64,000 bases of DNA from positions 9,274 through 73,273 of the forward strand of contig JABIJZ010000010.1 in the NCBI GenBank assembly GCA_018655275.1, in the 5' to 3' direction. This stretch comes from Candidatus Peregrinibacteria bacterium. GTDB lineage: Bacteria; Patescibacteriota; Gracilibacteria; UBA1369; LOWO2-01-FULL-3. A program made the position numbers and the translations under genes. The notes under the pieces were generated by a model. The model searched no databases and had not been told where the DNA came from. It was given only the letters and a program-made list of their open reading frames with translations. This document shows, piece by piece, positions 16,484 through 44,372 of the stretch (positions within the stretch are counted from its first letter, which is position 1; the number at the start of each line of letters is the position of its first letter).

Positions 16484-16504
16484 GTTGGAAATCCAAGTTT
16501 TGCC

Positions 16505-30175: not shown

Positions 30176-30254
30176 TTCCGGACAAAGGGGATTCTTAAGT
30201 ATTGTCCGGTATATCACCCCGGACAACACCTAAAAACACAAGCCTTCCGGGGCC
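30176..30254 (+). promoter_or_regulatory. Conserved CCGGACAA-repeat element, copy B
   Basis: CCGGACAAAGGGGATTCTTAAGTATTGTCCGGTATATCACCCCGGACAACACCTA matches copy A (16505..16590) at 50 of 55 positions. It lies about 170 nt upstream of the first pilin-module gene. Confidence 0.55.
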
Positions 30255-30292
30255 TTCTTTGCAAATTCTCACCCTCCACCATCACCTAACCC

Positions 30293-30321
30293 TTTACCCA
30301 AACCTAAAAAAATGATATAAT
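30293..30321 (+). promoter_or_regulatory. Candidate promoter with extended -10 for the pilin-module/PKD locus
   Basis: TTTACC (30293-30298), a 17-nt spacer, then TGATATAAT (TATAAT at 30316-30321). Confidence 0.4.
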
Positions 30322-30345
30322 AATACGATAAATAAAAACACAAAA

Positions 30346-31401
30346 ATGCTAAAAAAGATTTTCAAATTCCTTCTGGAGGCCGGAGTAATAACAGGCCTAA
30401 TCTTAATGTTTATCCAAGTTCCAATCACATTGGCGGCAACAGCTCATTCCGCAACAACTGCGGCAATCGCAACAGAAACAGAAGTTCAAGACTCAATGCT
30501 TCTGGCGGCAACAACTTCAAAAACTTCAATCCCGTTGCCAGACGGCTCAAGGTACGAATACATTCCAACACCTGCCGCAGGGCAAACAGCCAAGCAAACA
30601 ATATCAGTAGTAATAGAGCAAGCGATAGGTTATTTCAAAATTCTGATAGGAGGTGTGGCGATAGGATTTATAATCTTTTCGGGAACAAGACTAGTGGTAT
30701 CAGGAGGGGACGAAGAGGCAATCAAAAAAGGAACAAAAGGACTTTTATTTAGTATAGCGGCCCTCGCGATAATTTCATTATCCGAAGAGGTCGGAGTTTT
30801 GGTCGGATTTTTCCAAGGGGAAACCCCGACAGGAGGTATAATCAAAAGCCCAGGAGAAATCTTGAGACGAGTACACATTTTCGATAGACAGGTGGAAATC
30901 GTAATGACATTTATAAAATACTTAATAGGATCGTTGGCAGTACTCATGATTGTAGTCAACGGAGTGAAGTTGGTGGTAGGTGGCGGTGAAGAAGAAAATA
31001 CAAAAAAGGCGAGGAACGGAGTTGTATACTCACTTCTTGGATTAGTTTTATTGGTTTTCGGAAGCACTTTGATCAATGACGTTTTCTACAAAGTGGACAA
31101 AAACGTCTACTCTGGAATGGAATCAGTTACGCCAACAGTAGACCTAGCAAGAGGTGTGAACGAAATAGTCGGTATCACGAACTTCATAGTAAGTTATGTA
31201 GGTCCGGTGCTCCTATTGTTATTGTTAATTGGAGGGGTTCTATACCTGACTTCGGGAGGGGAAGAAGAGAATATGAATAGAGCAAAAAGATTGATAATCG
31301 CGGCACTAATAGGTGTGGTCGTAATATATGGGGCGTTTGCTGTCGTGAGTACGATAGTCTCAGGCTCATTTTCTGCAACCGCAAATGAATTAATAACTTA
31401 G
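30346..31401 (+). CDS. Membrane protein with three tandem VirB2/TrbC-like (CPR T4SS-pilin-type) two-TM modules
   Basis: The modules lie at aa 93-147, 185-243 and 276-336. Each is hydrophobic helix - GG(D/E)EE..(K/R)KA(K/R) loop - hydrophobic helix, for example FIKYLIGSLAVLMIVVNGVKLVVGGGEEENTKKARNGVVYSLLGLVLLVF. Confidence 0.7.
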   Translation: MLKKIFKFLLEAGVITGLILMFIQVPITLAATAHSATTAAIATETEVQDSMLLAATTSKTSIPLPDGSRYEYIPTPAAGQTAKQTISVVIEQAIGYFKILIGGVAIGFIIFSGTRLVVSGGDEEAIKKGTKGLLFSIAALAIISLSEEVGVLVGFFQGETPTGGIIKSPGEILRRVHIFDRQVEIVMTFIKYLIGSLAVLMIVVNGVKLVVGGGEEENTKKARNGVVYSLLGLVLLVFGSTLINDVFYKVDKNVYSGMESVTPTVDLARGVNEIVGITNFIVSYVGPVLLLLLLIGGVLYLTSGGEEENMNRAKRLIIAALIGVVVIYGAFAVVSTIVSGSFSATANELIT

Positions 31402-31408
31402 CAGCCTA

Positions 31409-32452
31409 ATGAAAAACCAAATTAAAAAATGGACAAAAAGATTCGTAATAGCGTTTTTGCTAATAAATTTGGGCCTAACAACTTACACAACATATGCGGC
31501 AGATGATGAAGCAAATCCCGCGGACGCACCTCAAAGCATGGGAGAAATAGACCCAAGAATGGCGCCATCGGGACAATTGCTGGAAGTCGGAGGGAGTACA
31601 GGATTACCTGATTTTAATCTCGGTAGTGGGCAGCACCCGGATGCACCGACAGACGCTGAGTACGCAGGTGCGGGAACAATAGGAAGTGTGATTTATTTCT
31701 TGTTAGATTTGTTCAAATATCTGATGAGCGGTGTCGCGATAGTGATGATTATTGTGTATGCGATACGATTCATTGTTCAAGGAAGCAACGAAGAGGACAT
31801 AAAGAAAGTTCAGAAAGGGCTGGGAGTTTCGATCGCTGGATTGATAGTGATTCAGTTGGCAGACATATTGGTGAAACAGGTCTTCTTTGGAGATTACGGA
31901 GAAGTTTTGGAAGATAAAACGAGCGCTCAGATGTTTGCTGAAGCAGGAAGTGATCAAATCAGAGGCATCATAGGGTTCATCCAATTTGGACTCGGTGCAA
32001 TTGCGGTACTTATGATAATTATAAACGGACTCAGGATAATGGTTACAGGTATGAATGAAGAAGGAAGGAAAAAAGCTTTGAAAAACATCGGATTTGCTGT
32101 TGGAGGATTGATACTAATAGCATTGTCAGAGGTTGTAGTGAGAGCATTCGTATTTCCGGACCAAGGAGATTCACTGCCTTCAGTTGATGCTGGCCAGTCA
32201 TTGATAATGATGCTTACCAACTTTATATCCGGATTTGTGGCAGTACTTTCATTCGTGATGTTACTATACGCAGGATACCTATATGTAGTTGCGGGAACAG
32301 ACGACACAACAAAGGACAAAGTAAAAAAAATACTAACAGGCGCAATTATAGGAATTGTTTTATCATTGAGCGCCTATGCAATAACAAACACGCTGGTCAG
32401 GTTTGAAGAACCAAACGAATACATACCAGCCGGAGAAAATATTGTGAATTAA
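31409..32452 (+). CDS. Paralogous membrane protein with three tandem VirB2/TrbC-like two-TM modules
   Basis: Has a signal/anchor, then three modules: LFKYLMSGVAIVMIIVYAIRFIVQGSNEEDIKKVQKGLGVSIAGLIVI, FIQFGLGAIAVLMIIINGLRIMVTGMNEEGRKKALKNIGFAVGGLILI and FISGFVAVLSFVMLLYAGYLYVVAGTDDTTKDKVKKILTGAIIGIVLS. Confidence 0.7.
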   Translation: MKNQIKKWTKRFVIAFLLINLGLTTYTTYAADDEANPADAPQSMGEIDPRMAPSGQLLEVGGSTGLPDFNLGSGQHPDAPTDAEYAGAGTIGSVIYFLLDLFKYLMSGVAIVMIIVYAIRFIVQGSNEEDIKKVQKGLGVSIAGLIVIQLADILVKQVFFGDYGEVLEDKTSAQMFAEAGSDQIRGIIGFIQFGLGAIAVLMIIINGLRIMVTGMNEEGRKKALKNIGFAVGGLILIALSEVVVRAFVFPDQGDSLPSVDAGQSLIMMLTNFISGFVAVLSFVMLLYAGYLYVVAGTDDTTKDKVKKILTGAIIGIVLSLSAYAITNTLVRFEEPNEYIPAGENIVN

Positions 32453-32512
32453 TTTTGAAAATATCACTTAGGAATATATAATTAACAATTGAAATAAATA
32501 GCCTCATATACT

Positions 32513-35500
32513 ATGAAAAAAATCAAGAAACTCTTACTAGCCTTAGGAATCAGTTCAATGCTGCTAGCTGGGTCATCTTTGGTGTTAGAACAAGTCCCAA
32601 ACACAGCACATGCTGGAGACGATATCTGCTCAGATATCAGCTCAGGATTTTTCCAATGTCCTACAGATGAAATTTCCTTCACAAAATACACAGGAGAATT
32701 GGTAAAAATTAGCCCAGAAGGCTACGACCCAGGTTTAACCAGAACTGGAAGTGTCCGAGAATTCATCCAGAAAATCGTGAATTATGCTCTGTCCTTCCTA
32801 GGATTAGTGGCAGTACTCTTGATTATATACGCTGGTGCAATGTATTTGACGGCAGGAAGTAATCAAGAAAATTCAGACAAAGCAAAGAAGACAATAGGAT
32901 ACACAGCGGCAGGATTACTTTTGATAATGGCTTCATATGCCATCGTCAACACCATCCTCACAGGCCCATTCGAAGGTGATAGGGCTACAGAGGGGGCAGT
33001 AGGAGGGTTGGCAGCAGAAGGCTTCAATGTCCACACAAAAGACATCATAGCTTCTGCGGAAAACGTAGTAAAAAGCTACAAATACCTAATAGACGGAGCT
33101 GAAACATTGAAAGTTTTGACAGAAGATGCACAAAAATCGAGTTTGGGCGGCTCACAAGTCTACGATAGTGGAAGTGAATCAGCCAAGATTTTTGGGGAAA
33201 CTAGTTCTATACCAAAAGTATCAAGATCATCAGTTTTGCAATACCTTAACGGAGCAAAAACAAAACTTCAAAATCTAAGATACCAAGCTCCAACATTCTC
33301 AAGCATACCAGTAAAAATCAATTTTATTACAAGATACATCGACCAAAAAATCGATGAAATCGAAAGTTTAAACAAAGTCGAGTATTTCAACGCAGATGGG
33401 CTAACAGCAACTGCGGACAAAGAAAACGACGCCTTTCTATGGATCGACAAACAAATCGACAAATCCGGCAAAGACATCGTTCTATACAAAGACGATCCAG
33501 GTAGCGCGAAACATCCACATGGAATGTATGACTACAACGGTGACAAAAAAGCAAATCTATACGAAATTTGGGACCACATAAGAAAAGAATTAATAGATGG
33601 ATCTCTCGTAGACGGAGAAAATTATTCAATTGCAACTATCATGGGCGAAATGAAAAAAGAATTCGCAGGTCCAAGCGACAAATTAGAAGCAGGCGGCTAT
33701 TTCGACACAGTAAGTTGTTCAGCTGCAGGGACACCAAAAGTAGACTCAGAAGGCAAGGTTGTTCTTGACGCAAATGGCAACGTCACATGGGAAAAAGGAG
33801 GAGAACCTGCGGAAGGAATGTTAGCTAAACAATATTGTGTACTTAAGAATGTATATACAGAAATAAGCCGGTTGGATATTTTCCAAAACACAGTAATCCC
33901 ACAGCTATACAATACATTGAGTGCCTCATTTGATTTACTGGGACAAGAAGTGTGGAATGAGAATTTTATAGAAAATCCATCATTTGCAAACGAGCATTTG
34001 GTATCAATTATCCAGACCGAAGACGAGCTGGTAAAATCGATAAAAGACATCAAGTTTGTACAAACAAAACTTGTTGCAAGTACAGTAGAGGGTACATCTC
34101 CATTGATCGTGCATTTCGACGTATTGAACTCACAAGATCCGTCAGGGGAAGCAGTCACAGAAGAACGAATTGCTTGGGATTTAATGGGCGATGGATTTAA
34201 CACAGCAGACACAAGATGTTACTCAACTTTCAAGACTCCAGCTGAGGCAGATGAGTCAGACGGATTCCTGAATTATTGCGTGTACGACAGGCCGGGATTA
34301 TACAGAGCTACAGCCAAAATCCTTTCAAGCAATCCAGCAGAATACGCAGCTGGAATAAGCACAATTGATATCAAAGTCCGACCTCCTGACACATTGATCG
34401 CGCTTAGCGCATCTCACAACGGAGTGGCCGAGCCAATTTGGCTAATAGACTACGGAAAAGAAGGCGAGGATGGATACGAAGGAGTTTTGAGAACTTCAAA
34501 AGACTCAATCAAACTCCCACTAAAATTCGCAGAAGACCCCGGAATAACATTTAGTGCTAAAAGAACAGCGGATCTTGGAGGCCAAGGCGACGGACAAACA
34601 ATCATAAACTACAAATGGGATTTCGGAGATGGAACTTCGGAAGAAGGCCCAACAAAAATAGAAGTGGAAGACAAAGAATATGACAACGAAGGCGTCTACA
34701 CAGTGACTCTTGAAGTTGTCGAAGCAGACGGTAGCAGCGCAAGAAAGATGTTCAACGTAGTTGTTGGATCGCCAGCTGCACACATCAAAATGTCTCCAGG
34801 CAAAAAGACATTCAATCTTGGAGAGACAGCCTCATTCGACGCTTCACGATCATCAACTGACGAAGGAAAAATCACTTCATACGAGTGGGAGTTAACAAAA
34901 AAAGCAGTAACTTTGGACTCAAATGGCGATGCCATCGTTCCAAACGATAACGACACAGTGGAAACATATAATGAAGAAGCAGAGAAATCTTCAGAAAAAG
35001 TATTTAATCACAAATTCACAGAAACCGGTCTCTACAAAATAGAGCTTAAAGTAACTGATTCATTGGACAATACAGACGACATAGATGTCTCAGAAATACT
35101 TGTTGTTTCTCAGCCACCAGTGCCTCTGTTCTCATATACTGTGCCGGACAAAAACACTCCATCTGAGTACCATTTTGACTCTTCAAAAACATATGATCCA
35201 GACGGAGATATCGATACGGATAGTGTGATCAAATACAAATGGACAATCGAACCAAACACCGAAGACAAAGTCACAGTAGAAGGCGGAGAGACCTCTCTCT
35301 TAAAAGAAAATCCAATAGTAACTTTCGAAGAAGCAGGTGATTATAAAGTCACTTTGACAGTTTCAAACGACGAACCAAACTCAGAAGAAGTTTCACTAGA
35401 AAAAACACTCACAATCGAAAACGTCCTCGACGTAAAGTGGTCGAAACAATCAGGCGAAGAGCTTACAACTTCTACAATAATGCTGGACGAAGAAGGCAAA

Positions 35501-37540
35501 GCTGAAGTCACAGTCGCTTTCGAAAGCAAAAGAGCAATCGCCTACGAAGTTAATTTCGGAGACGGCGAAACATCTACAGGCGAGATCGAAAAAAACGGCG
35601 GCCCAACAAAAGCTTTCCACACATACAGAGAGTCAGGAAAATTCAACATAAAAGTTACAGTCTACGATGAGACTGACGCCTCAAATGACATAATCAGGAA
35701 AGTATTCGTGGGGAACGGAAAAAGCCCAGTGGCTAAGATAAAAGTATTTATAAATGGAGAGGAATACGTTGGATACGAAGAGCCTCTAATGATCAGCAGA
35801 GCGGACGTTATAACATTCGATTCTTCTGACTCAAAAAACACAGACGGAACAGGCAGAGACTTGAAATACGTTTGGGATTTCGGAGACGGGGACAAAAGTA
35901 CAAAAAGAACAGTCTTCCACAAATTCGACGAAGTCAGCCCAACTCCTCCAGGATTTTATTGGGTAAAATTAATCATTTACGACAAAGACGATCCAACTCC
36001 AAGTCTAGACGACCTTGAGGAAGGAAAAACAGAAAAAGGCGACCTAGCCAAATTGAAGATAAACGTGGAACCAAAAGACCCACAATTCTCTTCACTACAA
36101 GCAATTCCAGCAATGGGAGAAGACTTGGTAACGCCAGTGGGAGTTAACCTTTCTGTATACGGTGCAAAAGACCCAGACGGGAAAATCACCCAATACAAAT
36201 GGTGGTACTACGACATCGAAAATGCTGACGAAGAGCTAGGACTTCAAGTTACACAGTCACCAACAGCAGCCATAACAATAGGTACAAACGGTGAAGAAGG
36301 AGAGCCAAAAACATACAGATTTGGTGTCGCAATTACAGATAACGAAAACAACACAGTAATGTCAGAAGGTGCAGACGACGAAGACAAGAATCAGCTTCCA
36401 CAAAACATGATTCCGGAGCAAGACGTGACGAACGGACCAAATTCAGTGCCTCTTGCGAAATTCTCAGTAGACAGAACAAAAGTCTTCGCGGGCGATCCAG
36501 TTAACTTCTCATCAAGCTCAAAAGACAAAGACGGTAAAATCGCAGAATACATTTGGGATTTCAAAGGAGACGGATTCTTCAATGACGCAGGGAAGCCAGA
36601 ATACAACAAAGCAACAGTCTCATACACATACGACGAGAAAAATCTAAACGGATACAAAGTTCGACTGAAAATTGTGGATAACGAAGGCGCAGAAGCTGTA
36701 TCTCAGCCAATTAGCGTGTTCATAGACTCAAATGCAAATCCACCAAAAGCGGCGTTCAAACACGAAGTCATAGGTGGTAAAACAGTCCAATTCACAAACA
36801 ATTCAGAAGCTGACTCAGAAGCCGACGCATCAATAAAAGAATACAAATGGGATTTCGACATCGCTTCTCAGTTCGATTCAGCCGATGCAGATGGCGACGG
36901 AACAAAAGACAACGATTTCGAATCTGATGAGAAAAATCCGACATTCACATACGATGAATTCGGAATCTATCAAGTAAAATTGACAGTCAAAGACGACAAA
37001 GGAAACGTTGAGTCAGTTACCAATATGGTGAACGTAACAGCCCTCTCAGGACCTGGAAGTGCAAGCGGCGGAACAATGGGCGACAGCCTACTTGGCACAC
37101 CAGCAGGCGGAACATCAACGCAAGATCCTCTGACACTAACAGGAGGAACTACATTAGGAGGTCTAGACGCTGAGCCAGGCGCAGGAATTGGCACATCAGC
37201 TGGCGCAGGAACAACTTTGTCAGGACTTCAAGCAATATTGATTTCAAACCCACTTCCAAATAATCAAGGAGTGGTAGCTCTTCCAGGAGACGCAGGCGAA
37301 ATCACTTTCGATTTCTCTCAATCAAACGGAAATATCGCATACTATATATTAGATAAAAATATTTATTTCGACACAAACGGTGACGGAATGAAAAACAATG
37401 ACGCAGATTTCAAAACTAGTCTTCCCGGACAATGGACTACCAATTTTGAGGAAGAATGGGGTAAGATCGTAGTAAAGTTAACCGTGACTGATTTGGATGG
37501 AAATTCTCATTCAACAGTACAAGAAGTCACATTTAAATAA
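32513..37540 (+). CDS. Giant (1675 aa) surface protein: signal peptide, one VirB2/TrbC-like two-TM module, then about 10 PKD-type Ig repeats
   Basis: The N-terminal module is at aa 83-150 (IVNYALSFLGLVAVLLIIYAGAMYLTAGSNQENSDKAKKTIGYTAAGLLLIMASYAIV). PKD signatures recur: WDLMGDGF, WDFGDGTSEEG, VNFGDGETS, WDFGDGDKS, WDFKGDGFF, YKWDFD, each followed by Y.V.L.V.D. Confidence 0.8.
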   Translation: MKKIKKLLLALGISSMLLAGSSLVLEQVPNTAHAGDDICSDISSGFFQCPTDEISFTKYTGELVKISPEGYDPGLTRTGSVREFIQKIVNYALSFLGLVAVLLIIYAGAMYLTAGSNQENSDKAKKTIGYTAAGLLLIMASYAIVNTILTGPFEGDRATEGAVGGLAAEGFNVHTKDIIASAENVVKSYKYLIDGAETLKVLTEDAQKSSLGGSQVYDSGSESAKIFGETSSIPKVSRSSVLQYLNGAKTKLQNLRYQAPTFSSIPVKINFITRYIDQKIDEIESLNKVEYFNADGLTATADKENDAFLWIDKQIDKSGKDIVLYKDDPGSAKHPHGMYDYNGDKKANLYEIWDHIRKELIDGSLVDGENYSIATIMGEMKKEFAGPSDKLEAGGYFDTVSCSAAGTPKVDSEGKVVLDANGNVTWEKGGEPAEGMLAKQYCVLKNVYTEISRLDIFQNTVIPQLYNTLSASFDLLGQEVWNENFIENPSFANEHLVSIIQTEDELVKSIKDIKFVQTKLVASTVEGTSPLIVHFDVLNSQDPSGEAVTEERIAWDLMGDGFNTADTRCYSTFKTPAEADESDGFLNYCVYDRPGLYRATAKILSSNPAEYAAGISTIDIKVRPPDTLIALSASHNGVAEPIWLIDYGKEGEDGYEGVLRTSKDSIKLPLKFAEDPGITFSAKRTADLGGQGDGQTIINYKWDFGDGTSEEGPTKIEVEDKEYDNEGVYTVTLEVVEADGSSARKMFNVVVGSPAAHIKMSPGKKTFNLGETASFDASRSSTDEGKITSYEWELTKKAVTLDSNGDAIVPNDNDTVETYNEEAEKSSEKVFNHKFTETGLYKIELKVTDSLDNTDDIDVSEILVVSQPPVPLFSYTVPDKNTPSEYHFDSSKTYDPDGDIDTDSVIKYKWTIEPNTEDKVTVEGGETSLLKENPIVTFEEAGDYKVTLTVSNDEPNSEEVSLEKTLTIENVLDVKWSKQSGEELTTSTIMLDEEGKAEVTVAFESKRAIAYEVNFGDGETSTGEIEKNGGPTKAFHTYRESGKFNIKVTVYDETDASNDIIRKVFVGNGKSPVAKIKVFINGEEYVGYEEPLMISRADVITFDSSDSKNTDGTGRDLKYVWDFGDGDKSTKRTVFHKFDEVSPTPPGFYWVKLIIYDKDDPTPSLDDLEEGKTEKGDLAKLKINVEPKDPQFSSLQAIPAMGEDLVTPVGVNLSVYGAKDPDGKITQYKWWYYDIENADEELGLQVTQSPTAAITIGTNGEEGEPKTYRFGVAITDNENNTVMSEGADDEDKNQLPQNMIPEQDVTNGPNSVPLAKFSVDRTKVFAGDPVNFSSSSKDKDGKIAEYIWDFKGDGFFNDAGKPEYNKATVSYTYDEKNLNGYKVRLKIVDNEGAEAVSQPISVFIDSNANPPKAAFKHEVIGGKTVQFTNNSEADSEADASIKEYKWDFDIASQFDSADADGDGTKDNDFESDEKNPTFTYDEFGIYQVKLTVKDDKGNVESVTNMVNVTALSGPGSASGGTMGDSLLGTPAGGTSTQDPLTLTGGTTLGGLDAEPGAGIGTSAGAGTTLSGLQAILISNPLPNNQGVVALPGDAGEITFDFSQSNGNIAYYILDKNIYFDTNGDGMKNNDADFKTSLPGQWTTNFEEEWGKIVVKLTVTDLDGNSHSTVQEVTFK

Positions 37541-37554
37541 ATAACCTTATTTCT

Positions 37555-39711
37555 ATGTTCAGTTTGCCTGACAAAAAACCAGTCAAGGCCTCTGAGAAAT
37601 TAGCGGCAAAGCCGCAAGCGCAAGAAGCGGCGAAACCGCAAGAAGCGCCACTTCTCAAGCCCCAAGAACAAGCAAAACCAAAATCAAAATTCAAAGAAAC
37701 TTTAACATTAGTAGGCGCAATATTAGGCGGACTTTCTGCCCTATACCTAGCCTTTACTTTTTATGTGATCGGAACCGCTAAAGAGGGCACAGAGCTCTCA
37801 ATCATCGGAGCTGGAACTCCAGCCTTCCTGAACGGATTAGTTGTTGGAGTATACATCGTATTATTCTTGGCAGCATTGGTCACATGTGTATGGGTTATCA
37901 TACCACTTTTCAAGATGCTTTTGGCGAAGAAAGAAGAAGTTGATAAGAAGAAAAAAGCAAAAAAACACGTGATAATCGCTGGAATCTTGTTGGGAGTACT
38001 TTTGATCGCATGGGGAACTGCATTTGTTTATTTGGAAAATAGAAGAGATGTTTTGAAAATAAACGTAGTTCATGCACCGATCGAAACTGAACCTTCAGAC
38101 ACACTTCAATTATCAGCTCCAGTTACAATAAAATTTGACGCAACTCACGCTGAAATAGATCCACAAAACTATAGAGTAGTTCTATATAATTGGGATTTTG
38201 GCGACGAAGAATCAGAAATCGGAGACGCGATAGTAACCCACGAATTCACACAAAAAGGAAGTTACATCGTCACATTAACAATCGAAAAAAGAAACGTCCA
38301 CACAGGAGAAACAGCAAAAGACACCCACACAAAAGAAGTCTCAATCACAAACCAATCTCTAACGGCAGCATTCACAGTCGAGCCACAAGCCGGGGAAGCA
38401 CCATTAGAAGCCATTTTTGACGCTTCTGATTCGATAGACCCAGACGGGAGAATCGGGAAATACGAATGGGACATCGACGGAGACGGCCAATTCGAAGAAG
38501 AATACGAAAACCAAATCACGGTTGAACACACTTTCGAAAAAATTGGAAACTACGAAGTTTTCCTAAGGATTACTTCATTAACAGGTGAAGATTACGAAAC
38601 AACAAAGAAGCAAGTTATCGTCACAAAAGGCGAAACACCCGCCGCAATAATCGAAGTACAAGGTGAACCTGCAACATACGAAACAGGCGTATCTTATATA
38701 TTTAAAGGCGGCGAATCAGTTTCCCCAAACGGAGACATCCTAGCTTATTCATGGGATTTCGATGATGGCTCAGCAATAGAAGATACAAAAACTGTTAGCC
38801 ACACATTCGACACAGAAGGTGTATACAACGTAATCCTGACCGTCACAGACGAGGAAGACAAAGAAGGAGAATCATTACTCGAGATAGTGATAGGAACAAA
38901 GCCTGGTACACCTCAAGCAAAAATGACTACAGATCCGGCTTTGGAGGACGGAGCACTAGCAATAGTAGGAGATTCTCCACTCACAATTTCCTTTGATGGA
39001 AGCGTATCAACAGACTCAGACGAAAATATCCTCGAATATGAATGGGATTTTGATAACGATGGTGAGGTCGATGAGTATGGCAAAAAATCAAGCCATACAT
39101 ATATAAAGGAGGGGACACACACCGCAAGACTTACAGTCACAGATGCTGACAACAACGTAGGAACAACAACAATTGGAATACAAGTATCAACTCCAGGAAT
39201 CAAAGCAAAATTAACAGCTGAACCAATCAACGGAGAAGTTCCATTAACAGTTAAATTTGACTCTACCGGGTCATCTCATCCAGGAGCTGAGATATCTAGC
39301 TACAAATGGGATTTCGGAGATGGAACAAGCCCAACCTTGGGTTCAGGCAAAATCAGCCACAAATACATAGAAATCGGAGAATATACAGCGATCGTCACAG
39401 CAATCGGTAGTGACAACACAAAAGCAACTGAAGAAGTTTATATAACTGTAAGGGCAGTCCAGGTTTCAGCTTGTTTCGATGCTTCACCCAAAACAGGTGT
39501 AGCACCTCTAAAAGTAAGTCTAGATCCAGATTGTAGTACAGGTACAATTACAGGTTATAACTGGGCATTTGGAGACGGTTCAAGTGCAGCAGAAGTCAAA
39601 CCTGAACACGAGTTCGACAAACCAGGAGTTTACCCTGTCACACTCGAGGTATCAGACAACGACAACAACGTATCGAGCACAACAATGAATGTCACAGTTA
39701 CAGCAGAATAG
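37555..39711 (+). CDS. Membrane-anchored protein with about 7 PKD domains
   Basis: A Lys/Pro/Gln/Ala-rich N-terminus is followed by three TM segments. PKD motifs then follow: WDFGDEESE, WDIDGDGQFE, WDFDDGSA, WDFDNDGE, WDFGDGTSP and WAFGDGSSA. Confidence 0.8.
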   Translation: MFSLPDKKPVKASEKLAAKPQAQEAAKPQEAPLLKPQEQAKPKSKFKETLTLVGAILGGLSALYLAFTFYVIGTAKEGTELSIIGAGTPAFLNGLVVGVYIVLFLAALVTCVWVIIPLFKMLLAKKEEVDKKKKAKKHVIIAGILLGVLLIAWGTAFVYLENRRDVLKINVVHAPIETEPSDTLQLSAPVTIKFDATHAEIDPQNYRVVLYNWDFGDEESEIGDAIVTHEFTQKGSYIVTLTIEKRNVHTGETAKDTHTKEVSITNQSLTAAFTVEPQAGEAPLEAIFDASDSIDPDGRIGKYEWDIDGDGQFEEEYENQITVEHTFEKIGNYEVFLRITSLTGEDYETTKKQVIVTKGETPAAIIEVQGEPATYETGVSYIFKGGESVSPNGDILAYSWDFDDGSAIEDTKTVSHTFDTEGVYNVILTVTDEEDKEGESLLEIVIGTKPGTPQAKMTTDPALEDGALAIVGDSPLTISFDGSVSTDSDENILEYEWDFDNDGEVDEYGKKSSHTYIKEGTHTARLTVTDADNNVGTTTIGIQVSTPGIKAKLTAEPINGEVPLTVKFDSTGSSHPGAEISSYKWDFGDGTSPTLGSGKISHKYIEIGEYTAIVTAIGSDNTKATEEVYITVRAVQVSACFDASPKTGVAPLKVSLDPDCSTGTITGYNWAFGDGSSAAEVKPEHEFDKPGVYPVTLEVSDNDNNVSSTTMNVTVTAE

Positions 39712-39724
39712 TCCCACTCAGGGA

Positions 39725-39753
39725 TTGATAAAAAACCTTAGATATGTTATAAT
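39725..39753 (+). promoter_or_regulatory. Candidate strong sigma70-type promoter
   Basis: TTGATA (39725-39730), a 17-nt spacer, then TATAAT (39748-39753), upstream of the 39811 gene. Confidence 0.5.
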
Positions 39754-39810
39754 TTAAGGATTAAGAAAGGATAAAAACAGGTTTAAAAACCAAAAAACAA
39801 AAACAAAAAA

Positions 39811-42800
39811 ATGGAGGAAAAGATATACCCTTTACAGGTAGCTCAATCCAAGGAAATCAAATCCTTGATGACCAAAAAGGCCAAAAAGCCTGGCTTCAAG
39901 GACTGGATAAAAGGCCGAAAAAGCATGGTCATTGCAGTATCTGTAGTGGCACTTTTGGCTTTAGGAACAGTAATGTACGCAAGTGGATTGGGAGGGAGCT
40001 TGATGGGTTTGTTAGGGGATGATGCAGCTTCATTAACTGCTGTGCCAGAACAATTTAAACCATCATCTAACCAAAGTGTCGAAATCCAATACACTCTTCC
40101 AGCTGAATTCGGCACAGCATATGGCCTTCCAACAGAAGAAGCAACAGTAACTCTAAAAATATTAGATCCAGATGGCACCGAAATTAAAAAATTTGAGAAA
40201 TTGCAAGCTACAAACACAGGCAGTTTTATATGGGGTGAGTCAGGCGAGCTAGAGTCTCTCTCTTCTGGGGAATACACATTATTCTTGAACGCATATGGAG
40301 GTCAAGGTACAGGTGTTGCTATAACTGCTTTCGAGACAATAACGGTTTTAGAAAAGACGGCAATAGAAGGTACAGCAGGAACAGCAGACCCAAAAACAAC
40401 TATTTCAGTAAATGTGGTGCCGGAGGAGTTTACACCATCAGAAGACGAAGAAGTTGAAATCCAATACTCACTTCCAGATGGATTTGGTGAGGCATCGGGT
40501 CCTTTAACATCAACAGTAACAGTAACTCTGGAAATATTAGGTCCAAGTGATAACAACATCTTAACTACATCGGAACCTTCAAGCCCAGGTATCTTCACAT
40601 GGGCTGGCTCAATTGGGGCAAATTATGTCTCACCTGGGGAATATTCAGTAAACTTAACCGCAACTGCAAACACAGGTGGTTTTGCATATGGTTCAACAAC
40701 TATGACAGTACTGGCAGCGGCGGAAACAGCAACAGCAGCTATTGAGCCACTAGCCTTAAATCTAGAGCTGGACAAAGCTACAATTTTAGAAGGAGAAGGA
40801 ATGGGCATAAATATAAATCCAACTCAATCTCTGTCTTTACATGAGATTCTTATAAAAAACAGTTCTGGGGCTTTAGTATTTTCTATACTAAAAAATAATT
40901 CAGAAGAGAACACCACAGGTAGTTATGCCTGGGATGGGAAAGATAGAAATGGGGAGTTTCTAGAAGTAGGTGTTTATAAAGTGGTCGTCACAGGAAAAGC
41001 TGCAGCAGGAGGTGAAGAAAAAACAGAAGAAAAAGCATTCACTATAACGGAACCAACACCAGGCTCAATCACAGTCTGGACAGAACCAGACACCATATGG
41101 CTCCCTGGGGAGATAACTGTCAAATGGGAAACAGAAGGGGACGTAAAACCAATAACCAATATAGAAATTTGGCATAGATACGGGATAGGAGGTCAAACAA
41201 TGGTAGCAAATCCAGGCTATCCTATTGAATGTTCAGAAAACATTTGTTCAAAAACATGGTTATGGGAAGAAACTGATGACACTGCGATTGAAACAGGGGC
41301 ATATTTTGTAGTAGTTGAAGATGAAAATGGAGTTAAAGGCCAAAGTGAAGATTTTCAAGTAAAAAAAACTTTAACCATAAATCTAAGCAAATACCAAGTA
41401 GAAGAAGGTGAAGGTTTCGAAATACAATTATCAACAGCTCCAAGGGGAACAATAACAGTATATGATCTAGCAATCGTAAGAGAGGATGGGTCTTTAGTTA
41501 ACAACCTAGTTCCAGGCACAGGGTCAATAACAGTGTCAGGAGAAACAACAGAGACAGTAATCTGGGATGGAACGATAGACCAAAGGGAACAGGGAACAGA
41601 TCCAGTAATAGCGGCTCCAGGCAATTATAAAGTTAGATACAAGCTAACATCAAAAGGTGATACTTATGAATACATTCCTTTCACAATCGTAGAAGAAGTA
41701 GTAATGGGGGTAACCATTGAGCCTTCAGGTTCAATAGAAATTTATGAAAGTGAAACAGTTTTTTTCATAGCTTTCATAAAAAACGGACAGAGCCCTTTGA
41801 CATTCGATATAAACTATGGAGATGGAGAGGAGGAGTCAATATCTTCAAACCAGGGAATGATAGACTTCTTTCACGAATTTTCATTACCTCCTAATACAAC
41901 CACAGAAACTTATACAGTCACAGTGGAAGTTACAGATGTTGAAGGGAAAATAGCCTCAATAGAAAAGCAAGTAACAGTAAACAAAAACGATTACCAAATC
42001 ACTATCAATTCAACTCCTCTTGCTCAACAATATCAAGATCAACCAGTAAATATAGCAGTTGCAGTGACAGACGGTCAAACACCGTACAACCTGTTAGTTG
42101 ATTATGGTGATGGCAGCCAAAAGGAAGCAAGAATGAATGTAGGTTCTGGTGTAGAATCTCATGATTTTACACACACATACGCAGAACCAGAAGTTTATAC
42201 ACAAACATTCACAGTAAATAAAGATGGTATAGGTGAAAAAGTAGCAACAAGAACATACACAATCCTAGAATCAAATGAAAATAAAACAGATCCTTTATTG
42301 TTCGATAAACTCACAATAGATCCTCCATTTCAACAAACAGTAGGCGGAGATGTAAGTATCACCGCAAAAGTAATAGGAGGCTCAGGAGAATACAATTACA
42401 CTTACTACAGCTCAGTTGCACCTGATCCATTTGCATTGGGGGCGAATTCATACGTTAAGGCCAAAGAAGACTTATTTGTAGTTAATGATTTCCCGATTGG
42501 AAACTATTCTATCTATGTAGAAGTTCAAGACGTAAACAACCCAGATACAATAGTAAAGTCCATCATATCAGCATACAAAATAGTATCCGTCGAAGAAAAT
42601 CCTTTAACATCAGTAGCCATTACAGCAGCCCCTCCAGGCCAACAAACATTAAATGGAGACGTCACAGTAACTGCAACTGCTACAGGAGGTTCAGGTAAAT
42701 ACAACTACACATACAAAGACGAAATGCCTAACGCAGTAGGTTTAATTCATCAAAATGTTGAAAACAATACAGATTCAAATATATTCCAACCTTTAAATGC

Positions 42801-43683
42801 AGGGGTTCATACTTTTTCTGTAACCGTAAGAGATGTAGAAACAGAAATAGAAATAAAAGAAACCATTACCTATACAATGGTGGAAGCAGACAACACAGCC
42901 AAAGCTTGCGCGAACGGAGTAGACGATGATGGTGACGGAAAAATCGATGCATACGACCCAGGTTGCGATTCCGACCAAGATGACGACGAACACAATACCG
43001 TTGACGACAACAACAATAACAATAACTATAACAACAACAACGACTACGAAATCTGCTCAAATGGAAAAGACGACGACGGAGACGGCAAAGTCGATTACCT
43101 CGACTCAGACTGTAAACTCCCAAAGAGTGCAGTGATGGACGTATACAACGCGACAGCTTCACCAAAATCATTCAACCCACACGTATACTCAAGCAAGATA
43201 AGTTGGTGGATGGACAAAGACGCATACGTTGACGTTGTAATAGAAGATCCACAAAGCAGCCTAGTTATTCAATTAGTAGACAATAAACTTCTAGACGATG
43301 GCTTCAACGAAGTTTGGTGGGAAGGAACAAAAGACAATAAAACAACAGGAACAATAGTTCCAGACGGAACATACAACTACGTAATAACAGCTACAAACAA
43401 AAAATACGAAACAGTCTCAGACACTCAAGAAGGAGTTATCACAGTTAGCACCTCAGACGGAGCTACTGGCGCACAAACTCAAGACATCGAAGACGTAAAC
43501 ACCGGCGGTGGAACAAGCGGTGTTGCTAGTGGAACAACAGGCGGTCAAACAACATTTGACCAAATCGCCCAAGCTTCAATGCAAAATGCACAAGCCGGCG
43601 AAACTGCAGGCACAGGTCCTGGAATCTTAGTATACTTCTTATTCCCATTATTTGCTTTCGCATTTAATCGGATTAAATCTTAA
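39811..43683 (+). CDS. Large (1290 aa) surface protein: N-terminal anchor, Ig-like/FlgD-Ig-like/PKD-like repeats, two Cys-bounded DDDGDG motifs, poly-Asn, C-terminal TM plus basic tail
   Basis: N-terminal TM is MVIAVSVVALLALGTVMYA. Repeats have the pattern VEIQY(T/S)LP..FG. Also present are YGDGEEES/YGDGSQKE PKD-like cores and CANGVDDDGDGKIDAYDPGC plus CSNGKDDDGDGKVDYLDSDC. A FlgD-Ig-like domain (FNEVWWEGTKDN..VPDGTYNYVITA) follows. The protein ends in GTGPGILVYFLFPLFAFAFNRIKS. Confidence 0.75.
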   Translation: MEEKIYPLQVAQSKEIKSLMTKKAKKPGFKDWIKGRKSMVIAVSVVALLALGTVMYASGLGGSLMGLLGDDAASLTAVPEQFKPSSNQSVEIQYTLPAEFGTAYGLPTEEATVTLKILDPDGTEIKKFEKLQATNTGSFIWGESGELESLSSGEYTLFLNAYGGQGTGVAITAFETITVLEKTAIEGTAGTADPKTTISVNVVPEEFTPSEDEEVEIQYSLPDGFGEASGPLTSTVTVTLEILGPSDNNILTTSEPSSPGIFTWAGSIGANYVSPGEYSVNLTATANTGGFAYGSTTMTVLAAAETATAAIEPLALNLELDKATILEGEGMGININPTQSLSLHEILIKNSSGALVFSILKNNSEENTTGSYAWDGKDRNGEFLEVGVYKVVVTGKAAAGGEEKTEEKAFTITEPTPGSITVWTEPDTIWLPGEITVKWETEGDVKPITNIEIWHRYGIGGQTMVANPGYPIECSENICSKTWLWEETDDTAIETGAYFVVVEDENGVKGQSEDFQVKKTLTINLSKYQVEEGEGFEIQLSTAPRGTITVYDLAIVREDGSLVNNLVPGTGSITVSGETTETVIWDGTIDQREQGTDPVIAAPGNYKVRYKLTSKGDTYEYIPFTIVEEVVMGVTIEPSGSIEIYESETVFFIAFIKNGQSPLTFDINYGDGEEESISSNQGMIDFFHEFSLPPNTTTETYTVTVEVTDVEGKIASIEKQVTVNKNDYQITINSTPLAQQYQDQPVNIAVAVTDGQTPYNLLVDYGDGSQKEARMNVGSGVESHDFTHTYAEPEVYTQTFTVNKDGIGEKVATRTYTILESNENKTDPLLFDKLTIDPPFQQTVGGDVSITAKVIGGSGEYNYTYYSSVAPDPFALGANSYVKAKEDLFVVNDFPIGNYSIYVEVQDVNNPDTIVKSIISAYKIVSVEENPLTSVAITAAPPGQQTLNGDVTVTATATGGSGKYNYTYKDEMPNAVGLIHQNVENNTDSNIFQPLNAGVHTFSVTVRDVETEIEIKETITYTMVEADNTAKACANGVDDDGDGKIDAYDPGCDSDQDDDEHNTVDDNNNNNNYNNNNDYEICSNGKDDDGDGKVDYLDSDCKLPKSAVMDVYNATASPKSFNPHVYSSKISWWMDKDAYVDVVIEDPQSSLVIQLVDNKLLDDGFNEVWWEGTKDNKTTGTIVPDGTYNYVITATNKKYETVSDTQEGVITVSTSDGATGAQTQDIEDVNTGGGTSGVASGTTGGQTTFDQIAQASMQNAQAGETAGTGPGILVYFLFPLFAFAFNRIKS

Positions 43684-43706
43684 AAATATTTTTAAACACA
43701 TTTATC

Positions 43707-44372
43707 ATGACTGATGAAAATACAACATTGCCACCAGAAGACCTAAATAAAGGTACTGAAGGCGAGGCACCAAAAACTGAAGCTCCAGCGGAAACACCCG
43801 TGGAAGCACCTGCTACACCAGCTGAAGCTCCGGTTGAAGCTCCAACAGCAACTGTCGAAACACCAGCAGAAACACCTGCTGCAGAACCAGCAGCTGACAT
43901 CGAAGTAAAACCAGCTGAGCCAGAAGTGCCAGCTGTCGAACCAGCGGCAACTCCAGAGGCACCTGCTGTGGAAGCGCCAGCTAAACCAGCTGAAGCACCA
44001 GCTCCAACTCCGGAAGCACCTGCTGCGGCAACTCCAGTCGAAACTGAAGCATCTGTTGACGCTCCTGCGCCAACTCCAGATGCTCCAGCAGTCGAAAGCT
44101 TGCTAGAACCAACAGAAGAACAAAAAGAAGAAGAAAGTTTCTTCAAGAAAAACAAACTTCTTTTAATAGGCGGAGTAATCGGGATTATCCTGATCGCAGT
44201 CACTGTAGGTGTTCTCTTGAGCTACAAAGATTCTGAAAATCTTGAAGGAATGATCAACAAGGTTATGCAGGAACAAGAAGCAGAGCAGATGACAGCACAA
44301 TCAGAAGCTGCTATTCAAGAAGCATTGGAGGAAGAAGCACCGAGAGGAAAAGTTAAAGTGAATATCAACTAA
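43707..44372 (+). CDS. Pro/Ala/Glu/Thr-rich low-complexity protein with a single TM segment
   Basis: About 130 aa of (P-A-E/T-x) repeats (APAETPVEAPATPAEAPVEAP...), then LLLIGGVIGIILIAVTVGVLL and a short charged tail. The antisense ORF 43673..44203 is a compositional shadow. Confidence 0.55.
   Translation: MTDENTTLPPEDLNKGTEGEAPKTEAPAETPVEAPATPAEAPVEAPTATVETPAETPAAEPAADIEVKPAEPEVPAVEPAATPEAPAVEAPAKPAEAPAPTPEAPAAATPVETEASVDAPAPTPDAPAVESLLEPTEEQKEEESFFKKNKLLLIGGVIGIILIAVTVGVLLSYKDSENLEGMINKVMQEQEAEQMTAQSEAAIQEALEEEAPRGKVKVNIN

What the first reader, a model, noticed from the sequence alone, without database searches (positions are those of the whole stretch)
30176..44372. 14-kb co-directional surface locus combining VirB2/TrbC-like pilin modules with giant PKD/Ig repeat proteins
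Six consecutive + strand genes run from 30346 to 44372, separated by gaps of 8-99 nt. They encode 7 copies of a two-TM pilin-like module, at least 17 PKD-type domains, FlgD-Ig-like domains, a protein with a C-terminal sorting-like signal, and a PAE-rich anchored spacer protein. A conserved upstream element and a promoter-like sequence precede the locus. No VirB4/VirD4/VirB6-type ATPase or channel gene lies in the window, so this is not a recognisable type IV secretion system. Membrane-embedded pilin modules coupled to about 3,700 aa of extracellular Ig-fold repeats would fit a surface appendage or adhesion apparatus. In an episymbiotic CPR-type cell it could mediate host attachment. I do not know of a characterised system with this composition.
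Basis: partly seen in the sequence, partly recalled or inferred. Interest (0 to 1): 0.8.

Follow-up and report, generated by a model that had tools for sequence, protein, structure and literature searches.

The report
Pilin-hairpin and PKD surface-protein locus
A four-gene core, found next to the same housekeeping genes in over a hundred species of Peregrinibacteria-type ultrasmall bacteria, joins membrane hairpins of the conjugative-pilin type to very long adhesin-like repeat proteins, and probably builds a cell-surface fibre or anchor that nobody has described.

Summary
Six co-directional genes (30346-44372) encode seven strong PF18895 'T4SS_pilin' hairpins (3+3+1), about 18 PKD-type domains, FlgD_ig domains, a protein with a C-terminal hydrophobic tail, and a Pro/Ala/Glu-rich single-pass protein.

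Only the first four genes form a conserved unit. The order secE-nusG | g1-g2-g3-g4 recurs in essentially all 80 fetched species-level loci of Peregrinibacteria/Gracilibacteria (129 relatives found). g5 and g6 are lineage-specific.

In a code-25 Gracilibacteria genome, g3 is split into a 143-aa pilin gene followed by a 985-aa secreted PKD protein. That fusion/fission event ties the pilin hairpin to the PKD arm.

No VirB4, VirB6 or VirD4 lies in the window or 10 kb beyond it. However, published work shows that Patescibacteria VirB2-like pilin genes are often detached from virB4.

Similarity to genuine VirB2 is only remote (hhalign probability 18-42%). A conserved TATAAT before g3 argues for more than one transcription unit.

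Best reading: a membrane-rooted assembly of pilin-type hairpins that displays PKD arms, possibly built by a T4SS encoded elsewhere.

Verdict: a new variant of a known kind (Patescibacteria VirB2-like pilin arrays). The mechanism is inferred, not shown.

The parts
30175..30256 (.). Palindrome-rich upstream element: CCGGACAA-N16-TTGTCCGG-N9-CCGGACAA followed by CTTCCGGG. Function unknown. It lies upstream of the promoter-like site.
   Evidence: Inverted and direct repeats. A second copy, exact in all 24 specified bases, lies at 16507-16555. CCGGACAA occurs 8 times in the window against 0.99 expected. The element is not conserved upstream of g1 in other species. No Rfam match and fold z-score -1.56.
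16504..16585 (.). Second copy of the same upstream element, in front of the FlgD_ig+SLH surface-protein gene at 16693-18396. Outside the locus; a possible sign of co-regulation.
   Evidence: The two upstream regions align at 75% mean column identity over 277 alignment columns, including a C-rich tract and the -35/-10 boxes.
30293..30321 (+). Promoter-like site with an extended -10 box (TTTACC-17-TGATATAAT) in front of g1.
   Evidence: Consensus scan, 10/12 with TG. A TGnTAnAAT box at a similar distance appears in many orthologous loci.
30346..31401 (+). g1: signal peptide followed by three tandem PF18895 pilin-type helical hairpins (6 TM helices), 351 aa.
   Evidence: Pfam 72.2 bits in 3 stretches. 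Hydropathy and module alignment. The AlphaFold2 model is all-helical with three hairpins, pLDDT 74. 69 homologues were found, all carrying PF18895.
31409..32452 (+). g2: paralogue of g1 with three pilin-type hairpins, 347 aa. It starts 7 nt after g1.
   Evidence: Pfam 74.4 bits in 3 stretches. Modules at matching positions are the most alike: g1m1-g2m1 42% identity. The median g1-g2 gap is 2 nt across 62 loci.
32455..32482 (+). Internal promoter-like site (TTGAAA-16-TATAAT) in the g2-g3 gap.
   Evidence: 11/12 match. TATAAT is present in 48 of 66 distinct orthologous g2-g3 gaps, against a shuffle mean of 6.9 and maximum of 15.
32513..37540 (+). g3: signal peptide, one pilin-type hairpin (aa 79-153), a poorly conserved and mostly helical 'neck' (aa ~175-511), then about 10 PKD domains. 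1675 aa.
   Evidence: Pfam PF18895 34.6 bits, PKD_4 205 bits. 10 PKD domains by local HMM. AlphaFold2 model of aa 1-640 has pLDDT 69.5; Foldseek recognises only the PKD part. Orthologues are 1367-2373 aa and always in the third position.
37555..39711 (+). g4: Lys/Pro/Gln-rich cytoplasmic tail, three TM helices (the last two form a hairpin of pilin-like topology but only marginal similarity), then six PKD domains. 718 aa.
   Evidence: Pfam PKD_4 286 bits; PF18895 only 15 bits. NCBIfam NF045849 24.9 bits, below its cut-off. 9.7 bits against the module HMM. Topology. The median g3-g4 gap is 12 nt. A full-length orthologue exists in L089 (E 2e-82).
39725..39753 (+). Promoter-like site (TTGATA-17-TATAAT with TG) in the g4-g5 gap.
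   Evidence: 11/12 match. Conservation in other genomes was not tested, because g5 itself is not conserved.
39811..43683 (+). g5: lineage-specific accessory surface protein. It has an N-terminal signal anchor, FlgD_ig-type and two PKD-like Ig domains, two acidic double-disulfide repeats, a Gly/Thr-rich linker and a C-terminal hydrophobic tail. 1290 aa.
   Evidence: Pfam FlgD_ig 53 bits; NCBIfam acid_disulf_rpt 42.9 bits against a cut-off of 41. Tail. tblastn matches occur mainly in the closest relatives: L001-L004 and L011, plus a short minus-strand match in L014.
43707..44372 (+). g6: lineage-specific single-pass membrane protein with a 145-aa Pro/Ala/Glu-rich N-terminal region that is probably cytoplasmic. 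221 aa.
   Evidence: Composition and flanking charges. One TM helix at aa 147-176. No significant family match. No tblastn match in any related locus.

Best explanation
The locus encodes a cell-envelope apparatus that is inherited vertically throughout Peregrinibacteria and related Gracilibacteria. Its core is four genes.

g1 and g2 are Sec-exported proteins. Each is made of three concatenated helical hairpins of the Patescibacteria 'T4SS_pilin' (VirB2-like) type. g3 carries one hairpin of the same type, and its outward-facing C-terminus continues into a helical neck and about ten PKD domains. g4 is held in the membrane by an extra TM helix and a cytoplasmic tail, and displays six PKD domains.

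I propose that the hairpins of the four proteins pack side by side, as pilin subunits do. g1 and g2 would supply the bulk of a membrane-rooted polymer or stalk. g3 would enter it as a pilin-fused adhesin, and g4 would act as the membrane-retained base. The PKD chains would be tens of nanometres long if extended (my estimate, assuming roughly 4 nm per PKD domain from general knowledge). That is long enough to pass through the wall and the SLH-protein layer to contact a partner cell or particle.

The most likely assembly motor is the VirB4-type machinery that most Patescibacteria encode, here at another locus. g5 and g6 are lineage-specific additions with their own promoter-like site.

Shown: domain composition, predicted topology, clade-wide synteny, tight gene coupling, the fusion/fission of pilin and PKD protein, and faster divergence than neighbouring genes. 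Inferred: hairpin co-assembly, filament formation, dependence on a T4SS, and an adhesive role.
For: - Family membership of seven hairpins, well above the curated cut-off. They share an amphipathic helix, TM1, a G-G/S-x-E-E...K-K-A-K loop and TM2.
- Topology: a signal peptide puts the N-terminus outside, each hairpin returns outside, so linkers and the g3 ectodomain are extracellular.
- The order g1-g2-g3-g4 beside secE-nusG recurs in about 80 fetched species-level genomes (129 relatives found) and in the most distant g3 homologues at 24-28% identity.
- Median gaps are 2 nt for g1-g2 and 12 nt for g3-g4.
- Rosetta-stone evidence: in L089 a 143-aa pilin that best matches the g3 module (E 2e-16) is followed 8 nt later by a 985-aa secreted PKD protein that aligns to g3 from aa 492 (E 2e-34). 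Next comes a full-length g4 orthologue, all inside an array of ten pilin genes.
- The locus proteins diverge much faster than their neighbours. Against L001: g3 41-48% and g1 62%, versus NusG 91% and L1 80%. This is expected for exposed surface proteins.
- The upstream region of g1 is shared with an SLH/FlgD_ig surface-protein gene.
- Published context: pilin arrays inside the T4SS cluster are essential in Southlakia epibionticum (PMC10633639). VirB4 is present in 2,417 of 3,035 Patescibacteria assemblies, and pilin genes are often away from virB4 (PMC12102498).
Against: - No T4SS ATPase or channel gene lies in the 64-kb window, in 10 kb beyond each end, or within 10 kb of the locus in any related genome examined. 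I could not check the rest of the 1.2-Mb genome.
- Similarity to experimentally established pilins is weak. hhalign probability is 18-42%, the TrbC Pfam score is below its cut-off, and neither a PDB sequence-profile search nor Foldseek gave a hit.
- In what I read, no PF18895 protein has been shown to form a filament.
- Three covalently linked hairpins (up to 17 in other public proteins) may be hard to extract from the membrane. They fit a permanently membrane-embedded role equally well.
- The g4 hairpin is not significantly pilin-like.
- There are no expression or localisation data.
Confidence: 0.5

Rival explanations
1. A T4SS-independent membrane scaffold. The hairpins never leave the membrane. 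g1 and g2 act as polytopic six-helix proteins that oligomerise with the g3 and g4 hairpins into a fixed platform. This platform anchors a coat of PKD fibrils, as part of the wall and S-layer architecture rather than a pilus.
For: - Concatenated modules (3 here; 4 to 17 in other public proteins) look like polytopic membrane proteins.
- There is no T4SS gene anywhere near the locus in any genome examined.
- The locus sits in a fixed place beside core genes, like a housekeeping envelope component.
- The upstream module is shared with an SLH-domain protein gene.
- g4 has an extra TM helix and a cytoplasmic tail, which suits a fixed anchor.
- VirB6 is undetectable in class Gracilibacteria (PMC12102498).
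Against: - The family is otherwise found inside T4SS clusters. Single-module, pilin-sized genes (107-159 aa) sit in the homologous Gracilibacteria locus L089.
- A simple anchor would not need seven conserved hairpins with a conserved charged loop.
- In L089 the 985-aa PKD protein has only a signal peptide, so it must bind something outside the membrane.
Confidence: 0.3
2. g1 and g2 are a divergent channel or translocon component. For example, they could be the functional stand-in for the VirB6-type polytopic subunit that cannot be detected in this class. g3 and g4 would be its extracellular accessory or receptor-binding subunits.
For: - Six TM helices per protein.
- VirB6 homologues are reported absent from class Gracilibacteria, 'suggesting extreme sequence divergence' (PMC12102498).
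- 'Extended VirB6' proteins with large hydrophilic domains exist in other T4SSs (PMC12857230).
Against: - No sequence signal for VirB6/TrbL or any transporter family. The only other hits are sub-threshold TM-composition matches (Cyt_bd_oxida_II, TctB).
- The repeat unit is clearly the pilin hairpin, and the same unit occurs as free 107-159-aa proteins.
- Foldseek gave no channel-like match.
Confidence: 0.1
3. An ordinary cluster of unrelated surface proteins. Under this reading the hairpins are generic membrane anchors, the Pfam matches reflect hydrophobic composition, and the adjacency has no functional meaning.
For: - Foldseek and PDB sequence searches give nothing specific for the hairpins.
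- One source annotated a g1 homologue as 'cytochrome bd-type quinol oxidase subunit 2', a typical TM-composition artefact.
Against: - E-values of 1e-20 with three full-length domain matches per protein.
- Conserved non-hydrophobic loop motifs.
- Strict order conservation across about 80 species, down to 24-38% identity.
- Translational-coupling distances between genes.
- The pilin/PKD fusion-fission event.
Confidence: 0.05

Closest known systems
VirB2-like pilin gene arrays of Patescibacteria T4SSs (Southlakia epibionticum SEML1_0006-0019 cluster; 441 arrays of 2-11 genes reported in PMC12102498)
   Same: Same Pfam family (PF18895). Several divergent pilin-type modules lie side by side (15-42% identity between modules here; about 25% average in the published arrays). 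The host is a monoderm CPR bacterium. No relaxase or coupling-protein gene lies nearby.
   Different: - The modules are concatenated three per polypeptide rather than one per gene.
- One module is fused to a protein carrying a helical neck and about ten PKD domains.
- The array is always partnered with a second PKD protein.
- The locus sits beside secE-nusG rather than beside virB4.
- None of this is mentioned in the papers read.
Canonical conjugative pilins VirB2/TrbC (Pfam PF04956; Agrobacterium VirB2 and relatives)
   Same: A signal peptide followed by two hydrophobic helices joined by a short cytoplasmic loop, with both termini outside. The hhalign alignment is in register across TM1, loop and TM2.
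   Different: The similarity is only remote: 21.4 bits against a 27.9-bit cut-off, and hhalign probability 18-42%. The loop is 7-8 residues longer and carries an acidic-basic motif. The modules are fused and multimerised. No adjacent virB1, virB3 or virB4 is present, whereas all the real virB2 genes fetched sit between such genes.
Mycoplasma ICE 'Mbov_0395 family pilin-like conjugal transfer protein' (NCBIfam NF045849)
   Same: It is the second-best family match for g1, g2, g3 and g4 (E 6e-8 to 1e-5). It belongs to a monoderm (MPF-FATA-type) conjugation system, the lineage from which the Patescibacteria T4SS is thought to derive.
   Different: All scores (24.9-32.2 bits) are below the 40-bit cut-off. 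That protein is a small single-module protein on a mobile element. This locus is chromosomal, syntenic and shows no GC anomaly.
Pam pili of CPR bacteria (PamA/PamB Ig-fold pilins, donor-strand exchange; bioRxiv 10.64898/2026.03.03.709456)
   Same: A CPR-specific surface filament built from Ig-like domains and anchored by a membrane protein, with no dedicated trans-envelope machine nearby.
   Different: The PamR matches (35.7-45.7 bits against a 300-bit cut-off) only reflect Ig/PKD folds. No chaperone-like genes are present. The Pam system has no pilin-type hairpins. It is reported predominantly in Saccharimonadia and Microgenomatia.
Archaeal Ced DNA-import pili (VirB2-like pilins in monoderm archaea; PMC9905601, seen only as title and abstract)
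   Same: A precedent showing that machinery homologous to the bacterial conjugation apparatus operates in cells without an outer membrane.
   Different: The Ced system works with VirB4-type machinery. The paper was not read here, so its pilin architecture was not compared.

Membership tests
Pfam PF18895 T4SS_pilin (Patescibacteria / monoderm VirB2-like pilins) | Profile match above the curated gathering score (26.6 bits) | tested here: met
   g1 72.2 bits (3 stretches), g2 74.4 bits (3 stretches), g3 34.6 bits (1 stretch). g4 reaches only 15 bits, so it is not a member.
Pfam PF18895 T4SS_pilin (Patescibacteria / monoderm VirB2-like pilins) | Signal peptide followed by two hydrophobic helices with a short charged loop | tested here: met
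   Hydropathy, module alignment and helical hairpins in the AlphaFold2 models.
Pfam PF18895 T4SS_pilin (Patescibacteria / monoderm VirB2-like pilins) | Small, single-module protein (about 100-160 aa), as in the published arrays | tested here: not met
   g1 and g2 each carry three modules in about 350 aa. g3 carries one module in 1675 aa. Multi-module relatives are common among the best-scoring hits in public data.
Type IV secretion system (as a gene system) | VirB4-family ATPase, the hallmark of every T4SS, encoded with the pilin genes | tested here: not met
   No VirB4/CagE/TraG-type Pfam hit among the window's larger ORFs, among the genes 10 kb beyond each end, or within 10 kb of the locus in the related genomes whose called genes were listed.
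Type IV secretion system (as a gene system) | VirB4 and partner genes (VirB3/PrgI, TrsD, VirB6/PrgH) present elsewhere in the same genome | not testable with these tools
   Only 64 kb plus 20 kb of gene lists from the 1,204,761-bp contig could be seen. The literature gives VirB4 in 2,417 of 3,035 Patescibacteria assemblies, and dispersed T4SS genes in class Gracilibacteria.
Canonical TrbC/VirB2 pilins (Pfam PF04956) | Profile match above the gathering score (27.9 bits) | tested here: not met
   The g3 module scores 21.4 bits (E 2.9e-4). g1 and g2 give no hit. Several orthologues do carry precomputed PF04956 hits.
Canonical TrbC/VirB2 pilins (Pfam PF04956) | Profile-profile similarity to genuine VirB2/TrbC proteins | tested here: inconclusive
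   hhalign of the window modules against six plasmid VirB2/TrbC proteins gives probability 17.8% (E 1.4e-3). The g1 family against the same set gives probability 41.9% (E 2.7e-4). The alignments are in register. A PDB sequence-profile search found no pilin.
Canonical TrbC/VirB2 pilins (Pfam PF04956) | Polymerises into an extracellular pilus | not testable with these tools
   This needs microscopy, biochemistry or multimer modelling. Only monomer prediction was available.
Pam pilus system of CPR (NCBIfam NF058578 PamR and partners) | Match to PamR at its equivalog cut-off (300 bits), plus chaperone-like PamC/PamD genes | tested here: not met
   Scores are 35.7-45.7 bits, confined to Ig/PKD segments. 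The locus has no chaperone-like gene.
Sortase- or exosortase-type sorted surface proteins | C-terminal LPXTG or PEP-type motif before the hydrophobic tail, matching a curated sorting-signal model | tested here: not met
   No LPXTG-like or PEP motif in the last 60 residues of any of the six proteins. No NCBIfam sorting-signal model matched at E <= 0.1. The g5-type tail is unique in the window.
PKD-repeat surface proteins (Pfam PF18911/PF00801) | Multiple PKD domain matches above the gathering score, in a predicted extracellular segment | tested here: met
   g3 PKD_4 205 bits (7 stretches) and g4 286 bits (6 stretches). Foldseek matches the first g3 domain to the PKD structure 4xed, but not significantly (probability 0.98, E 0.2).

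The most novel reading that the evidence does not exclude
The g1-g4 cassette is a self-contained, T4SS-independent surface organelle. In this reading, concatenated VirB2-derived hairpins ('polypilins') have been co-opted as a self-assembling membrane or filament scaffold that displays PKD adhesins. That would be a previously unrecognised class of cell-surface appendage, universal in Peregrinibacteria and present in modified form in Gracilibacteria. It would also imply that the many 'T4SS pilin' arrays of CPR bacteria are adhesin-display modules rather than conjugative pili.
Probability: 0.25. Interest if true: 0.8.

Novelty: new variant of a known kind. Interest (0 to 1): 0.6.

Why it matters
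VirB2-like pilin arrays are among the few CPR-enriched gene sets shown to be essential for epibiotic growth (PMC10633639), yet nobody knows what they build.

This locus gives a concrete clue. Across a whole CPR lineage the pilin hairpin is physically fused to, or encoded directly before, a long PKD-repeat ectodomain, and two further proteins each string three hairpins together. That points to the hairpins serving as an assembly and anchoring module for surface adhesins.

It also offers testable targets: four conserved proteins and one fixed genomic address. These could be used for proteomics, cryo-ET and multimer modelling in Peregrinibacteria and Gracilibacteria, a group whose partners and attachment mechanisms are largely unknown.

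If assembly proves independent of VirB4, it would define a new type of bacterial surface structure.

Tried and rejected
1. Foldseek of the g1 model and of the g3 (aa 1-640) model against the PDB gave no hit at E <= 0.001. Only the PKD part of g3 was recognised, and the helical neck (aa ~175-511) stays unassigned.
2. A PDB sequence-profile search with the seven modules returned only chance GPCR and transporter matches, and no pilin.
3. A protein search with the N-terminal 545 aa of g3 returned only 2 proteins, a limit of the word index. The full-length query later gave 16 orthologues.
5. g4 as an eighth pilin module was rejected: 9.7 bits against the module HMM, with hits in only 7 of 58 orthologues (one of which, L009, was a mis-extracted g3).
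6. Pam-pilus membership was rejected.
7. An LPXTG or PEP sorting signal in g5 was rejected.
8. The upstream element as a known RNA was rejected: no Rfam hit and fold z-score -1.56. As a clade-conserved operator it was also rejected: GC-rich palindromes occur upstream of g1 in only 3 of 78 loci.
9. A metagenome-wide scan for the element found nothing, so the regulon could not be defined.
10. Supplement look-ups in PMC12102498 for T4SS content of Peregrinibacteria returned nothing useful, because the stored file is truncated.
11. Walking 10 kb beyond each window end found no T4SS gene. The rest of the genome could not be reached.
12. Literature searches for pilin-PKD fusions, PF18895, and Peregrinibacteria T4SS found no description of this architecture.

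Full report
**1. What is there**

The six + strand ORFs are real and lie at the stated coordinates: g1 30346-31401, g2 31409-32452, g3 32513-37540, g4 37555-39711, g5 39811-43683 and g6 43707-44372. The gaps between them are 7, 60, 14, 99 and 23 nt. GC content is like the rest of the window.

Pfam places three PF18895 'T4SS_pilin' stretches in g1 (72.2 bits), three in g2 (74.4 bits) and one in g3 (34.6 bits). All exceed the 26.6-bit cut-off.

Each module consists of an amphipathic helix, TM1, a G-G/S-x-E-E...K-K-A-K loop and TM2. Modules in matching positions of g1 and g2 are the most alike (42% for the first pair), so g1 and g2 are whole-gene paralogues of an older triplication.

Signal peptides and hydropathy predict that every linker, and the whole g3 ectodomain, lie outside the cell. 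The AlphaFold2 model of g1 is a signal helix plus three helical hairpins (pLDDT 74).

- g3 continues into a poorly conserved, mostly helical neck (aa ~175-511) and then about ten PKD domains.
- g4 has a Lys/Pro/Gln-rich cytoplasmic tail, three TM helices and six PKD domains. Its hairpin is not significantly pilin-like.
- g5 carries FlgD_ig domains, two PKD-like domains, two acidic double-disulfide repeats and a C-terminal hydrophobic tail with no known sorting motif.
- g6 is a single-pass protein whose Pro/Ala/Glu-rich 145-aa N-terminus lacks a signal peptide and is probably cytoplasmic.

**2. Surroundings**

The neighbours are housekeeping genes. Upstream on the minus strand are secE, nusG, a conserved unknown gene and rplA. 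Downstream is an MscS-family channel gene on the minus strand. The window also holds RuBisCO, histidine and purine biosynthesis genes, and SLH-domain proteins.

No VirB4, VirB6 or VirD4 appears among the window's larger ORFs or in the gene lists 10 kb beyond each end of the source contig (JGI 3300072015, 1,204,761 bp).

**3. Comparative evidence**

g1 has 69 homologues in the protein collection, all carrying PF18895. A scan of one genome per species found 129 relatives, nearly all labelled Peregrinibacteria, Peribacteria or Gracilibacteria.

In essentially every fetched locus with enough sequence, the order is rplA - unknown - nusG on the minus strand, then g1-g2-g3-g4 on the plus strand. The same holds for the most distant g3 homologues, at 24-28% identity.

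g5 matches mainly the closest relatives, and g6 matches none. Downstream of g4, about 30 of 41 loci carry some other secreted or membrane protein on the plus strand, and about 8 carry a minus-strand gene. The conserved unit is therefore g1-g4.

The median g1-g2 gap is 2 nt and the median g3-g4 gap is 12 nt. The g2-g3 gap has a median of 54 nt and contains TATAAT in 48 of 66 distinct cases (shuffles: mean 6.9, maximum 15). Together with 11/12 promoter matches in the g2-g3 and g4-g5 gaps, this points to three units: g1g2, g3g4 and g5g6.

The locus proteins diverge far faster than their neighbours. Against L001, g3 is 41-48% identical, versus NusG at 91%.

**4. A fusion/fission event links pilin and PKD**

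In a Gracilibacteria genome that evidently uses the UGA-recoded genetic code (L089, GCA_028704165.1), the homologous region holds ten pilin genes: eight single-module genes of 107-191 aa and two multi-module genes. These flank two PKD proteins.

A 143-aa pilin that best matches the g3 module (38% identity, E 2e-16) is followed 8 nt later by a 985-aa PKD protein. That protein has only a signal peptide and aligns to g3 from aa 492 (E 2e-34). Next comes a full-length g4 orthologue (E 2e-82).

g3 is thus a pilin fused to a PKD protein. This is the strongest evidence that hairpin and PKD arm work as one physical unit. No VirB4 lies within 10 kb there either.

**5. How widespread is the module**

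A profile of the seven modules, searched against 1.84 billion cluster representatives, matched 53,073 proteins at E <= 1e-3. The best hits include many multi-module proteins with 3 to 17 hairpins in one chain, such as P0093 (820 aa, 8 modules) and P0113 (1775 aa, 17 modules). Concatenation is therefore a general, and apparently undescribed, property of this family.

**6. Relation to known families**

Membership in PF18895 is solid. The relation to experimentally established pilins is remote:

- TrbC/VirB2 Pfam scores 21.4 bits against a 27.9-bit cut-off.
- hhalign against six genuine plasmid VirB2/TrbC proteins gives probabilities of 17.8% and 41.9%, with in-register alignments and a loop 7-8 residues longer.
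- The PDB sequence-profile and Foldseek searches gave nothing.

The NCBIfam PamR hits are Ig-fold noise, so the Pam pilus is a different system.

The literature establishes three points. VirB2-like arrays of 2-11 genes are frequent in Patescibacteria. They lie near virB4 in only 1,135 of 1,948 assemblies. T4SS genes are dispersed, and VirB6 is undetectable, in class Gracilibacteria (PMC12102498). Separately, the pilin array inside the T4SS cluster of Southlakia is essential (PMC10633639; PMC12857230).

None of the papers found mentions three-module pilins, pilin-PKD fusions or this locus.

**7. Explanation**

My best reading (confidence about 0.5) is a membrane-rooted assembly of pilin-type hairpins:

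- g1 and g2 supply the bulk.
- g3 is a pilin-fused adhesin.
- g4 is a retained base.
- The PKD arms project through the wall and the SLH layer.
- Assembly is probably driven by VirB4-type machinery encoded elsewhere.

From general knowledge (not tested here), peptides fused to the C-terminus of F-pilin are displayed on the pilus surface. The position of the g3 ectodomain is therefore geometrically compatible with incorporation into a pilus.

The main rival (about 0.3) is a T4SS-independent platform in which the hairpins stay in the membrane. A divergent channel role (about 0.1) and a meaningless cluster (about 0.05) are less likely.

Co-assembly, filament formation, T4SS dependence and adhesion are all inferred. 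Composition, topology, synteny, gene coupling and the fusion event are shown.

**8. The upstream element**

The 'conserved upstream element' is real but specific to this lineage. A palindrome-rich segment of about 85 nt (CCGGACAA-N16-TTGTCCGG-N9-CCGGACAA) occurs at 30175-30256 and again at 16504-16585. The second copy lies in front of a FlgD_ig+SLH surface-protein gene. The two upstream regions align at 75% mean column identity over 277 alignment columns, including their promoters.

It is not a known RNA. It is not conserved in other species, although L001 has a different palindromic tandem repeat at the same place. It was not found in the metagenome collection. It may mark co-regulated surface genes or be a dispersed intergenic repeat.

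**9. Verdict**

The locus is a new variant of a known kind, the Patescibacteria VirB2-like pilin arrays. It is notable for intragenic concatenation of modules, the pilin-PKD fusion, and clade-wide synteny away from any T4SS gene. Interest: 0.6.

Noticed in passing
window 16504-16585 and 30175-30256: The same palindrome-rich element of about 85 nt (three CCGGACAA half-sites), plus a similar C-rich tract and promoter, precedes both g1 and the FlgD_ig+SLH protein gene at 16693-18396. It could be a shared operator, a promoter cassette or a dispersed repeat.
   Followed up: partly
window 28259-29080 (- strand): A 273-aa protein with an N-terminal membrane anchor and no Pfam hit sits between nusG and rplK/rplA. 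It occupies the same place in nearly all related loci (25-52% identity). This is an unusual conserved insertion in the secE-nusG-rplKA cluster, directly beside the pilin locus.
   Followed up: partly
public proteins P0093, P0113, P0230, P0219: Proteins made of 8, 17, 11 and 10 concatenated pilin-type hairpins exist in public metagenomes. I saw no description of such 'polypilins' in the papers read. Their genomic context could not be looked up.
   Followed up: partly
L089:9577-20160 (GCA_028704165.1): A Gracilibacteria genome with in-frame stops under table 11, suggesting an alternative genetic code. It has an expanded version of the locus: ten pilin genes around an unfused 985-aa PKD protein and a g4 orthologue. 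An MscS-family gene lies nearby, as in the window.
   Followed up: yes
g2-g3 intergenic gaps of 66 related loci; window 32455-32482: The conserved TATAAT often ends only 11-12 nt before the g3 start codon, and 30 nt before it in the window. No Shine-Dalgarno-like sequence is evident upstream of any of the six start codons in the window. This suggests leaderless or very short-leader mRNAs.
   Followed up: partly
window 16693-18396 and 52816-54558; two genes within 10 kb upstream of the window: Several SLH-domain proteins occur here, most of them with FlgD_ig domains (567, 792 and 919 aa with FlgD_ig; 580 aa with SLH only). The organism probably has an SLH-anchored surface layer that the PKD arms would have to cross. 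g5 shares the FlgD_ig domain type but lacks SLH.
   Followed up: no
window 26601-28262 (+ strand): A 553-aa charged protein with no Pfam hit is inserted in the ribosomal-protein/nusG cluster, on the opposite strand. It had no tblastn match in any of the related loci.
   Followed up: no
L001:9810-9910: At the position of the window's palindromic element, a relative carries a different palindrome (TTACCCGGGTG/CACCCGGGTAA) in 42-nt tandem repeats. This suggests a fast-evolving repeat or operator at this site.
   Followed up: partly
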